A DNA stretch of 16,684 bases, taken from the IMG/VR virus record IMGVR_UViG_2526164618_000010, one strand, 5' to 3'. This DNA comes from a virus. Lineage: Duplodnaviria; Heunggongvirae; Uroviricota; Caudoviricetes. The translations under genes and the position numbers were made by a program. Below, piece by piece: positions 12,697-12,753 of this stretch (positions are counted from its first letter, which is position 1; the number at the start of each line of letters is the position of its first letter). The notes beneath the pieces were generated by a model that was not told the DNA's origin, searched no databases, and saw only the letters and a list, made by a program, of their open reading frames with translations.

Positions 12697-12753
12697 GTGT
12701 GAAGTACCAGTTGGCGGCATCGGTTTAATTGCTGGCTGATGTCCGCCCTTTTT
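12697..12753 (+). ncRNA. dicF: DicF-like small RNA (prophage cell-division inhibitor sRNA homolog)
   Basis: …UACCAGUUGGCGGCAUCGGUUUAAUUGCUGGCUGAUGUCCGCCCUUUUU resembles E. coli DicF from memory (UUGGCGG.AUC.GUUU core; 3' hairpin GGCGG…CCGCC plus U-run). The downstream CCGCCCTTTTTAAAGTGAATTTTGTGATG also matches remembered dicF-dicB spacer. The 5' end is approximate. Confidence 0.5.

What the first reader, a model, noticed from the sequence alone, without database searches (positions are those of the whole stretch)
12697..12753. DicF-like sRNA homolog with a diverged 5' targeting region
The 3' hairpin, U-run and downstream spacer resemble K-12 dicF as I remember it, and the conserved core UUGGCGG-AUC-GUUU is present. 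The 5' portion (…GUGAAGUACCAG…) differs from K-12 DicF, which could shift target specificity. No DicB-like ORF follows; a Rha-domain gene sits in its place.
Basis: partly seen in the sequence, partly recalled or inferred. Interest (0 to 1): 0.5.

Follow-up and report, generated by a model that had tools for sequence, protein, structure and literature searches.

The report
KilS-type prophage small RNA, DicF relative
The element is real, but it is not DicF: it is a Shigella/EIEC variant of KilS, the small RNA of the Rac prophage, which has a DicF-like terminator hairpin, a targeting region resembling the core sRNA RprA, and no predicted pairing with the cell-division gene ftsZ.

Summary
Window 12713-12753 is a GC-rich hairpin plus U-run with the DicF core (TTGGCGG.ATC.GTTT). 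The 180 nt after it are 74% identical to the K-12 dicF-dicB leader. No dicB follows; a Rha-domain gene does.

The DicF label is only partly right. Rfam DicF scores 28.6 bits against a threshold of 48 (K-12 DicF scores 76.7). The nucleotides DicF uses to pair with ftsZ are replaced.

The element is collinear with kilS (b4833), the northern-verified, Hfq-dependent sRNA upstream of kilR in K-12 Rac. A covariance model built only from K-12-type KilS sequences hits window 12659-12753 full length (80.5 bits, E 4e-19). The first 43 nt and the last 22 nt are nearly identical to KilS. The roughly 30 nt between them (pre-hairpin single strand and loop) differ.

Unexpectedly, KilS carries the exact 16-nt 5' seed of processed RprA, and a mapped RNase E site lies just before it. 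The window keeps 14 of those 16 nt.

The allele is rare (6-7 of 5,426 complete E. coli genomes, plus S. flexneri) and is unannotated in those E. coli genomes. It is always followed by an isrK-C4-Rha antirepressor module.

Verdict: a new member of a known sRNA family, of moderate interest.

The parts
12659..12753 (+). Predicted primary KilS-type sRNA (95 nt). It has two small 5' hairpins, a single-stranded seed, a terminator hairpin and a U-run.
   Evidence: CM R1, built from K-12-type KilS sequences only, hits 12659-12753 full length at 80.5 bits, E 3.8e-19. It is 83% identical to K-12 KilS, with 42 of the first 43 nt identical. The fold is -32.5 kcal/mol, z = -2.3. The 5' end is inferred from the K-12 TSS at 1418502 and is not measured here.
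12690..12712 (+). Predicted seed: the single-stranded stretch before the hairpin (C-AUUGCUGUGUGAAGUACCAGUU). The first 11 nt of the AUUG... motif are identical to KilS and to processed RprA; the rest is allele-specific. A predicted RNase E site lies at about 12690.
   Evidence: AACGACATTGCTGTGTGAAGTA at 12685-12706 matches the RprA/KilS motif with 2 mismatches, and 0 of 200 shuffles give a match. The K-12 KilS RNase E site at 1418471 is nt 32, in the context GAC|AUUG, which is identical in the window. Alignments A1 and A2.
12713..12753 (+). DicF-type intrinsic terminator: an 11-13 bp stem (GGCGGCAUCGG / CUGAUG-U-CCGCC), a loop and UUUUU.
   Evidence: The Rfam DicF model aligns 12698-12748 full length at 28.6 bits.
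12754..12932 (+). Conserved structured leader shared by dicF-dicB, kilS-kilR and this locus. It has a closing stem of about 22 bp (about 12755-12776 with about 12888-12910).
   Evidence: 89% identical to the Rac leader and 74% to the Qin leader. The fold is -58 kcal/mol, z = -2.6. Sub-threshold STnc100 hit at 12760-12902, 29.9 bits against GA 47.
12984..13060 (+). isrK-like sRNA with its own terminator (part of the downstream cargo).
   Evidence: Rfam RF01394, 61.5 bits (GA 50), full length.
13085..13172 (+). C4-type antisense RNA (P1/P7 immI type; part of the downstream cargo).
   Evidence: Rfam RF01695, 75.7 bits (GA 45), full length.
13227..13781 (+). Rha-family antirepressor-like gene. The equivalent RefSeq CDS (L001) corresponds to window 12933-13781. 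The in-frame ATG at 13227, preceded by GAGG, is the likelier start.
   Evidence: Phage_pRha 108 bits; PHROG anti-repressor and transcriptional-regulator families. RefSeq annotation of the 98.5%-identical locus.
11147..12477 (-). IS2 insertion (1331 bp, 5-bp target duplication CTCAG), 181 bp upstream of the predicted sRNA start. It separates the sRNA from the cI-like repressor (9945-10352) and the early-left promoter.
   Evidence: The IS2 ends and the CTCAG duplication were read directly from the sequence. IS2 is named in matching genomes.

Best explanation
Window 12659-12753 (+) encodes a Shigella/EIEC allele of KilS. KilS is the Hfq-dependent small RNA that lies in the early-left leader of Rac-type lambdoid prophages.

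Shown here. The element is collinear and homologous with K-12 kilS. It uses the same terminator scaffold and downstream leader as dicF. Its pre-hairpin single strand and its loop are replaced relative to both KilS and DicF. In every copy with enough flanking sequence it is followed by an isrK-C4-Rha antirepressor module rather than kilR or dicB.

Inferred from K-12 KilS data. Transcription starts at a local promoter near 12659 and stops at the intrinsic terminator at 12753, giving an RNA of about 95 nt. RNase E then cuts at the conserved GAC|AUUG site (about 12690). This leaves a species of about 64 nt whose 5' end is the seed AUUGCUGUGUGAAGUACCAGUU, immediately followed by the Hfq-binding terminator hairpin and U-tail. 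That species base-pairs in trans with mRNAs.

Consequences for targeting. The seed keeps only the first 11 nt (14 of 16) of the KilS / processed-RprA seed, so its target set should overlap theirs only in part. The anti-ftsZ nucleotides of DicF are absent, so it should not block ftsZ translation.

In cis, the same hairpin is a terminator that limits read-through into the antirepressor module.
For: Family assignment. R1, a model built without any window-type sequence, gives 80.5 bits and E 3.8e-19 full length at 12659-12753. The same model gives DicF 11.1 bits and RprA 15.8 bits. Identity to K-12 KilS is 83%, with near-identical ends. The upstream 114 nt are 86% identical and the leader 89% identical.

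KilS is a real RNA in K-12. It is annotated as b4833. [quoted passage not shown] A TSS is mapped at 1418502 and an RNase E site at 1418471 (Suppl. Table 6).

DicF relationship. The Rfam DicF model aligns full length but below threshold (28.6 bits). K-12 KilS scores 39.1 and K-12 DicF 76.7.

No ftsZ pairing. An accessibility-corrected duplex scan recovers DicF nt 31-53 paired with ftsZ -28..-7 (hybrid -22.7 kcal/mol). The window RNA's best ftsZ site is better than only 4% of random 120-mers.

RprA-like seed. The 16-mer ATTGCTGTGTGTAGTC is shared exactly by RprA and all K-12-type KilS loci. It is the 5' end of processed RprA, which is the last 47 nt of RprA (PMC9262595). The window matches 19 of 21 specified positions, with 0 of 200 shuffles matching.

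Module linkage. All 4 window-type copies with enough flank are followed by the MLNVAIENQNGW... Ash/Rha ORF.
Against: There is no expression data for this allele or for its host.

The promoter scan found no sigma-70-like site upstream. The candidate -10 hexamer differs from K-12 at one base (TTAAAT to TGAAAT; read directly).

IS2 cuts the locus off from the early-left promoter, and the prophage is heavily decayed (IS2, IS600, IS66-family).

No convincing target was found. There was nothing above background inside the window, and the yncL prediction is weak.

In the predicted fold, the allele-specific insertion pairs with GCUGUGU and could partly mask the seed.

The stem never varies in the retrieved set, which was selected using the stem sequence, so there is no covariation support.

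The evidence for KilS function in K-12 is itself thin: 3 RIL-seq partners and no validated target.
Confidence: 0.7

Rival explanations
1. It is only a cis-acting element. On this reading it is an intrinsic terminator or attenuator in the leader of the antirepressor operon that gates read-through into isrK-C4-Rha. The released short RNA would be a by-product with no trans targets.
For: A strong hairpin plus U-run is called terminator-like. Its position, between the early promoter-proximal small ORFs and a gene whose expression must be kept low (dicB, kilR or an antirepressor), is conserved across all types. No credible target was predicted.
Against: The K-12 counterpart accumulates as a discrete Hfq-dependent RNA and forms Hfq-bound chimeras. 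The sister RNA DicF has several validated trans targets (PMC5069750). In KilS-type alleles, the single strand next to the hairpin carries a 16-20 nt copy of a known functional sRNA seed, which a terminator does not need. The two roles are not mutually exclusive.
Confidence: 0.2
2. It is a true DicF orthologue that still inhibits cell division by pairing with ftsZ mRNA, merely with a drifted sequence.
For: The Rfam DicF model aligns full length at E 3e-4. It has the same scaffold, U-tail and leader, and the same operon position.
Against: The score is 19 bits below the family threshold. The ACUCCG loop and CUGCUCUGCC 3' arm that pair with the ftsZ RBS are replaced by AAUUGCUGG and CUGAUGUCC. The predicted ftsZ interaction is no better than for random sequence, while the DicF control is recovered. 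It fits the KilS model about 70 bits better than DicF does.
Confidence: 0.05
3. It is a silent relic: a sequence-conserved remnant in an IS-riddled defective prophage that is no longer transcribed.
For: IS2 lies 181 bp upstream. IS600 and IS66-family elements, and truncated recE and replication genes, surround it. Another copy (L053) is flanked by IS600 on both sides. No promoter-like site was found.
Against: The sRNA, leader, isrK, C4 and Rha ORF are all intact and 98.5-100% conserved among independent Shigella/EIEC genomes despite the surrounding decay. In K-12, KilS has its own TSS, so it does not depend on the early-left promoter. The 114 nt before the predicted start are 86% identical to Rac, and nearly all the differences lie in the distal 20 nt.
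Confidence: 0.15

Closest known systems
KilS (kilS, b4833), the sRNA in the kilR 5' UTR of prophage Rac, E. coli K-12 (Bar et al. 2021, PMC8175672)
   Same: It is collinear and homologous over the whole length (83% identity; 80.5 bits under a KilS-only model). The 5' 43 nt match, including two small hairpins and the RNase E site context. The terminator stem and U-tail match. The upstream region and the roughly 180-nt leader match. It occupies the same place in the prophage map: cI-like repressor, DUF1391 small ORFs, sieB on the opposite strand, sRNA, leader, cargo.
   Different: The roughly 30 nt that matter for targeting differ. The seed is AUUGCUGUGUG-AAGUACCAGUU instead of AUUGCUGUGUG-UAGUCC. 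The loop is UUUAAUUGCU instead of UUUUUUUCUUGAAGUUCG. The cargo is isrK-C4-Rha instead of kilR. The allele is rare (6-7 of 5,426 complete E. coli genomes) and is unannotated in them.
DicF (Rfam RF00039), the sRNA of the dicBF operon of prophage Qin
   Same: The terminator base (UUGGCGG.AUC.GUUU ... CCGCCCUUUUU) is the same. The downstream RNase III/STnc100-like leader is the same (first 33 nt differ at one base). It has the same position in the early-left operon of a lambdoid prophage. It probably has the same two roles, as terminator and as Hfq sRNA.
   Different: It is below the family threshold (28.6 against 48 bits) and only 65% identical. The stem is near-perfect, whereas in DicF the 3' arm is mismatched and is used for pairing. 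The anti-ftsZ nucleotides and the 5' xylR-pairing region are absent. In DicF the 5' end is made by RNase E from a long ydfABC transcript, whereas KilS has its own TSS. No dicB follows.
RprA (Rfam RF00034), processed 47-nt form
   Same: The architecture is a seed immediately 5' of a terminator hairpin. The seed begins AUUGCUGUGUG in all three RNAs. K-12 KilS shares 16 nt exactly, and one variant (L110) shares 20 nt. The RNase E cut maps within one nucleotide of the start of the motif in both RprA and KilS.
   Different: The terminator, promoter and locus are unrelated. There is no RprA CM hit in the window. The window allele departs from the RprA seed after nt 11 (14 of 16, then a 4-6 nt insertion). 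The main rpoS/csgD/hdeD-pairing region of RprA (nt ~31-50) is not shared.

Membership tests
DicF (RF00039) | Covariance-model score at or above Rfam's gathering threshold (48 bits) | tested here: not met
   No hit at gathering. With relaxed thresholds, 28.6 bits and E 3e-4. Controls: K-12 DicF 76.7 bits, K-12 KilS 39.1 bits.
DicF (RF00039) | Terminator hairpin on a GGCGG/CCGCC base followed by a U-run | tested here: met
   12713-12753; -20.3 kcal/mol, z = -2.75; terminator-like; alignment A1.
DicF (RF00039) | Loop and 3'-arm nucleotides complementary to the ftsZ ribosome-binding site (the functional definition: division inhibition) | tested here: not met
   ACUCCG...CUGCUCUGCC is replaced. The duplex scan recovers DicF-ftsZ (-22.7 kcal/mol hybrid) but finds nothing for the window RNA, whose best site is worse than 96% of random segments. 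This is a computational test only.
DicF (RF00039) | Lies in the early-left operon upstream of dicB, followed by the conserved leader | tested here: inconclusive
   The leader is present (74% identity) and the operon position is the same. However, dicB is absent and a Rha gene follows.
KilS (b4833 family; no Rfam model exists) | Full-length sequence and structure homology to K-12 KilS | tested here: met
   Model R1, built from 9 K-12-type sequences with no window-type rows, gives 80.5 bits and E 3.8e-19 over model positions 1-97. Identity is 83%.
KilS (b4833 family; no Rfam model exists) | Same 5' end and TSS context, and same internal RNase E site context | tested here: met
   At the sequence level, 42 of the first 43 nt are identical and the upstream 114 nt are 86% identical. 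AACGAC|AUUGCUG is identical. Actual ends in this host were not testable.
KilS (b4833 family; no Rfam model exists) | Sits in the 5' UTR of kilR | tested here: not met
   The leader is 89% identical, but the gene after it is an Ash/Rha ORF containing isrK and C4. Recombinant combinations of sRNA type and cargo exist elsewhere.
KilS (b4833 family; no Rfam model exists) | Hfq-dependent accumulation as a discrete RNA of about 98 nt | not testable with these tools
   Shown only for K-12 (PMC8175672).
RprA (RF00034) | Covariance-model match, and the Rcs-controlled locus between ydiK and ydiL | tested here: not met
   No RprA hit in the window at E up to 10. K-12 KilS reaches only 28.1 bits against GA 70. 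Only the seed segment is shared.

The most novel reading that the evidence does not exclude
KilS-type RNAs may be prophage-borne mimics of processed RprA. They carry the same 16-20 nt seed, exposed by an RNase E cut at the same place, grafted onto the DicF-type terminator and leader of the early-left operon.

On this reading, the DicF/KilS scaffold is a cassette on which prophages exchange seeds (DicF-type, RprA-type, the window type and at least two others), together with a linked cargo gene. The Shigella/EIEC allele would be a retargeted seed variant that regulates a host or prophage regulon different from those of DicF, KilS and RprA.

No paper in the searchable library mentions KilS together with RprA. 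The paper that described KilS mentions neither RprA nor DicF.
Probability: 0.3. Interest if true: 0.6.

Novelty: new member of a known kind. Interest (0 to 1): 0.4.

Why it matters
As given, the finding is a modest annotation gain. It identifies an unannotated allele of a known prophage sRNA in Shigella and EIEC, and it shows that this allele should not be expected to inhibit ftsZ as DicF does.

The wider point is that DicF and KilS are two branches of one scaffold family. They share a terminator and a leader, but their targeting segments have been swapped. One branch carries the seed of the core envelope-stress sRNA RprA. If that seed works in trans, Rac-type prophages could tap into or compete with RprA-controlled targets. 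The family would then be a natural example of seed exchange between core and mobile sRNAs.

Rfam has no KilS model, so these loci go unannotated or appear as weak DicF hits.

Tried and rejected
1. Plain RNAduplex of whole sRNAs against the ftsZ translation-initiation region (TIR) was uninformative. It gave full-length duplexes for everything, with shuffles scoring equally well. I replaced it with a windowed, accessibility-corrected scan. A first version of that scan timed out.

2. I searched the whole window, both strands, for a target of the window sRNA. Apart from trivial self-antisense hits, the best site was 7882-7895 (+), which is antisense to a minus-strand gene. I rejected it as a target.

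3. I looked for pairing between each sRNA type's variable region and the start of its own cargo gene (kilR, Rha). I inspected this by eye, and the scan covered the Rha case. Nothing convincing was found, so I dropped the idea that the sRNA is a cis-encoded antitoxin for its cargo.

4. KilS against yncL, its RIL-seq partner. The best hybrid uses the RprA-like segment (KilS nt 34-47 with the yncL 3' UTR, -18.2 kcal/mol), but after accessibility correction it is not outstanding. I treat it as a weak hint only.

5. Covariation in the terminator stem. The retrieved set was selected by the stem sequence and the stem is invariant, so no test was possible.

6. The small ORFs overlapping the element (12540-12686 +, 12549-12800 -) have no Pfam hit above the curated cut-off and no PHROG hit. 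I rejected a protein-coding reading.

7. Faubladier & Bouche 1994, Conter et al. 1996 and Papenfort et al. 2015 are not held in the library. What I say about them is from memory or from citing papers.

Full report
**1. The observation**

GGCGGCATCGGTTTAATTGCTGGCTGATGTCCGCCC (12713-12748) folds into an 11-13 bp hairpin followed by TTTTT. The 60-nt fold is -20.3 kcal/mol, z = -2.75, with 3 of 200 shuffles folding as well. A consensus scan calls it terminator-like. The DicF core TTGGCGG.ATC.GTTT is present.

The 33 nt after the U-run differ from the K-12 dicF-dicB spacer at one base, and the whole 179-nt spacer is 74% identical to it. The next ORF has a Phage_pRha domain and no DicB.

**2. Is it DicF?**

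At Rfam's gathering thresholds the window gives only sok, C4 and isrK, and no DicF. With relaxed thresholds on 12440-12940, the DicF model aligns full length to 12698-12748 at 28.6 bits (threshold 48, E 3e-4). Under the same conditions, K-12 DicF scores 76.7 bits.

An alignment of 15 variants (A1) shows two hairpin classes.
- DicF class: loop ACUCCGUG and a mismatched 3' arm CUGCUCUGCC.
- Second class: a near-perfect 3' arm CUGAUGUCC. The window belongs to this class.

DicF represses ftsZ through its 3' region (PMC5069750). A windowed duplex scan with accessibility penalties recovers that interaction: DicF nt 31-53 with ftsZ -28..-7, hybrid -22.7 kcal/mol. For the window RNA it finds nothing at the ftsZ start. 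Its best site is worse than 96% of random 120-mers.

The element is therefore related to DicF but fails both the family's score test and its functional signature.

**3. What it is**

The window is a decayed Rac-like lambdoid prophage in a Shigella-type genome. Positions 12001-13900 are 99.95% identical to S. flexneri SFBU1023, and IS2, IS600 and IS66-family elements abound.

The gene order is as follows:
- YdaT-like gene;
- cI-like HTH repressor (9945-10352);
- DUF1391-type small ORFs;
- a sieB-like gene on the other strand, interrupted by IS2 (11147-12477, target duplication CTCAG);
- the element;
- the leader;
- the cargo.

This is the order of K-12 Rac: racR, ydaG, ydaF, sieB, kilS, kilR. 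RefSeq annotates an ncRNA, kilS (b4833), between sieB and kilR.

The kilS sequence is collinear with the window. Of the first 43 nt, 42 are identical. The last 22 nt are identical. Overall identity is 83%. The upstream 114 nt are 86% identical and the leader is 89% identical.

I built a covariance model from nine K-12-type KilS sequences only (A3, R1). It hits window 12659-12753 full length at 80.5 bits, E 3.8e-19. The same model gives K-12 DicF 11.1 bits and RprA 15.8 bits. The element is a KilS family member.

KilS was predicted from Hfq RIL-seq. [quoted passage not shown]

**4. A scaffold family with swapped targeting segments**

A pattern for the stem retrieved more than 120 loci from viral contigs and 12 from species-representative genomes. 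At least six types appear.

The stem base, the U-tail and the leader are conserved. The 12-20 nt before the hairpin, and the loop, are what differ between types.

Type goes with cargo, with a few recombinants:
- DicF type: dicB in about 65 of 80 informative loci.
- KilS type: kilR in 25 of 26.
- Window type: the Ash/Rha ORF in 4 of 4.

The window type is rare. It occurs in 6-7 of 5,426 complete E. coli genomes, all of which look like EIEC, with no feature annotated under the match. It also occurs in S. flexneri.

**5. An unexpected relative: RprA**

The relaxed Rfam scan of K-12 kilS gave a weak RprA hit (28.1 bits, E 0.34). The alignment (A2) shows why. KilS AACGACAUUGCUGUGUGUAGUC corresponds to RprA AACGA-AUUGCUGUGUGUAGUC, with 16 consecutive identical nucleotides. 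In both RNAs the segment lies directly 5' of the terminator hairpin.

This 16-mer is present in every K-12-type KilS locus and in rprA. One variant (L110) shares 20 nt with RprA.

[quoted passage not shown] By my count of the 106-nt sequence, it therefore begins exactly with AUUGCUGUGUGUAGUC.

Supplementary Table 6 of the KilS paper lists one RNase E site inside KilS, at 1418471. That is KilS nt 32, in the context GAC|AUUG. It is within one nucleotide of the same place. KilS is therefore probably processed to a form of about 66 nt whose 5' end is the RprA seed.

The window keeps the cleavage context and the first 11 nt of the seed, then diverges: AUUGCUGUGUG-AAGUACCAGUU. It matches 19 of 21 specified positions of the motif, and 0 of 200 shuffles give such a match.

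Neither RprA nor DicF is mentioned in the KilS paper. No paper in the library mentions both KilS and RprA.

From memory, not checked here: Papenfort et al. 2015 reported that RprA uses a second seed domain, in its 3' part, for ricI.

**6. Mechanism**

Shown: homology, the predicted fold, the terminator, module linkage, and loss of the DicF anti-ftsZ nucleotides.

Inferred: a primary RNA of about 95 nt runs from a local TSS (12659) to the terminator (12753). RNase E cuts near 12690. The resulting species of about 64 nt, with a 5' seed, hairpin and U-tail, binds Hfq and pairs with mRNAs that differ at least partly from those of KilS and RprA.

The same hairpin must also act in cis as a terminator ahead of the leader and cargo. 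The leader folds with a closing stem of about 22 bp (-58 kcal/mol). It corresponds to the region where RNase III makes the 72-nt DicF (PMC9438474). The kilR leader is also subject to Rho/NusG silencing (PMC13501541).

**7. Weak points**

- There is no expression data for this allele.
- No promoter-like site was found by the scan.
- IS2 lies 181 bp upstream.
- No target has been identified.
- In the predicted fold, the allele-specific ACCAGU pairs with GCUGUGU and might mask the seed.
- The evidence for KilS function in K-12 is itself limited.

**8. The cargo**

The equivalent RefSeq CDS, 'Rha family phage regulatory protein', corresponds to window 12933-13781 and contains a Phage_ASH domain (aa 14-107) and a Phage_pRha domain (aa 119-203). 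The ASH part coincides with full-length isrK (12984-13060, 61.5 bits) and C4 (13085-13172, 75.7 bits) RNA matches.

An in-frame ATG at 13227, preceded by GAGG, gives a 184-aa protein that keeps the whole Rha domain and matches anti-repressor PHROGs.

This looks like a P1 immI-type arrangement (c4-icd-ant) or the Salmonella isrK-orf45-anrP arrangement; I recall both from memory. About 1.1 kb thus holds four RNA elements in a row ahead of an antirepressor: KilS-type sRNA, STnc100-like leader, isrK and C4.

**9. Verdict**

The DicF interpretation is partly supported: the scaffold is homologous, but the element is not a family member and no ftsZ targeting is predicted. The best description is a seed- and loop-diverged allele of KilS linked to an antirepressor module.

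It is a new member of a known kind. Interest is moderate, raised somewhat by the KilS-RprA-DicF mosaic, which seems not to have been described.

Noticed in passing
L005 3406-3503 (-) = K-12 kilS; L140 273-378 = rprA; window 12685-12706: K-12 KilS and RprA share the exact 16-mer AUUGCUGUGUGUAGUC, plus AACGA before it, directly 5' of their unrelated terminators. The 16-mer is the 5' end of processed RprA (its last 47 nt). The only mapped RNase E site in KilS (1418471, nt 32) lies within 1 nt of its start. Variant L110 shares 20 nt with RprA. The window keeps 14 of the 16. No paper in the library links KilS with RprA.
   Followed up: partly
window 12933-13781, with RNA hits at 12984-13060 and 13085-13172: The CDS that RefSeq annotates as 'Rha family' in the near-identical locus L001 corresponds to window 12933-13781 and starts 294 nt upstream of a good internal start (ATG 13227 with a GAGG Shine-Dalgarno). 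Its N-terminal Pfam Phage_ASH domain (aa 14-107) coincides with full-length isrK and C4 RNA matches. Either this stretch is dual-use, or the Ash protein family partly consists of translated RNA genes. The arrangement resembles P1 c4-icd-ant and Salmonella isrK-orf45-anrP.
   Followed up: partly
window 12754-12932; L004 2436-2609; L005 3231-3405: A structured leader of about 180 nt with a closing stem of about 22 bp is conserved between dicF-dicB, kilS-kilR and this locus. In all three it gives sub-threshold hits to the Salmonella sRNA family STnc100 (28-34 bits against GA 47). It is more conserved than the sRNAs themselves.
   Followed up: partly
L004 2388-2396 and about 2564-2572; window 12866-12874: In K-12 Qin, the DicF 5' segment GGUGACGUU is perfectly complementary to AACGUCACC in the dicB leader about 170 nt downstream (read by eye). 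The window leader keeps AACGUCACC, but its sRNA lacks the complement. This may be a long-range pairing within the primary transcript, specific to the DicF type.
   Followed up: no
window 11147-12477: A complete IS2 (1331 bp) with the 5-bp target duplication CTCAG is inserted into a sieB-like gene on the minus strand. It separates the sRNA and antirepressor module from the cI-like repressor (9945-10352) and the early-left promoter. Another copy of the module (L053) has IS600 on both sides.
   Followed up: partly
PMC8175672 Supplementary Table 3 (KilS probe 2): Northern probe 2 for KilS (AGGACTACACACAGCAATGTCGTTATTTAC) covers the 16 nt identical to RprA. RprA is of similar size (106 nt), Hfq-dependent and, as I recall, also accumulates in stationary phase, so cross-hybridisation is possible. 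Probe 1 lies in the KilS-specific loop.
   Followed up: no
window 5709-5884 (-): There is a full-length sok antitoxin RNA match (117 bits, GA 59), with a hok-sized ORF region next to it (5559-5771, -). This is a hok/sok type I toxin-antitoxin locus inside the prophage remnant.
   Followed up: no
window 5942-6628 (-): An epoxyqueuosine reductase QueH gene (Pfam 220 bits) lies among the prophage replication and regulatory genes (DUF977, YdaT, IstB-like ATPase fragment).
   Followed up: no
L131 3640-3681 (-), Salmonella enterica: A Salmonella copy has the DicF-class loop and 3' arm (ACUCCAUGGCUGCUCUGCC) joined to a different 5' segment (UGUUGUGUGAGAGUUGGGUUU) and an unrelated downstream region. 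This is another recombinant of the scaffold.
   Followed up: no
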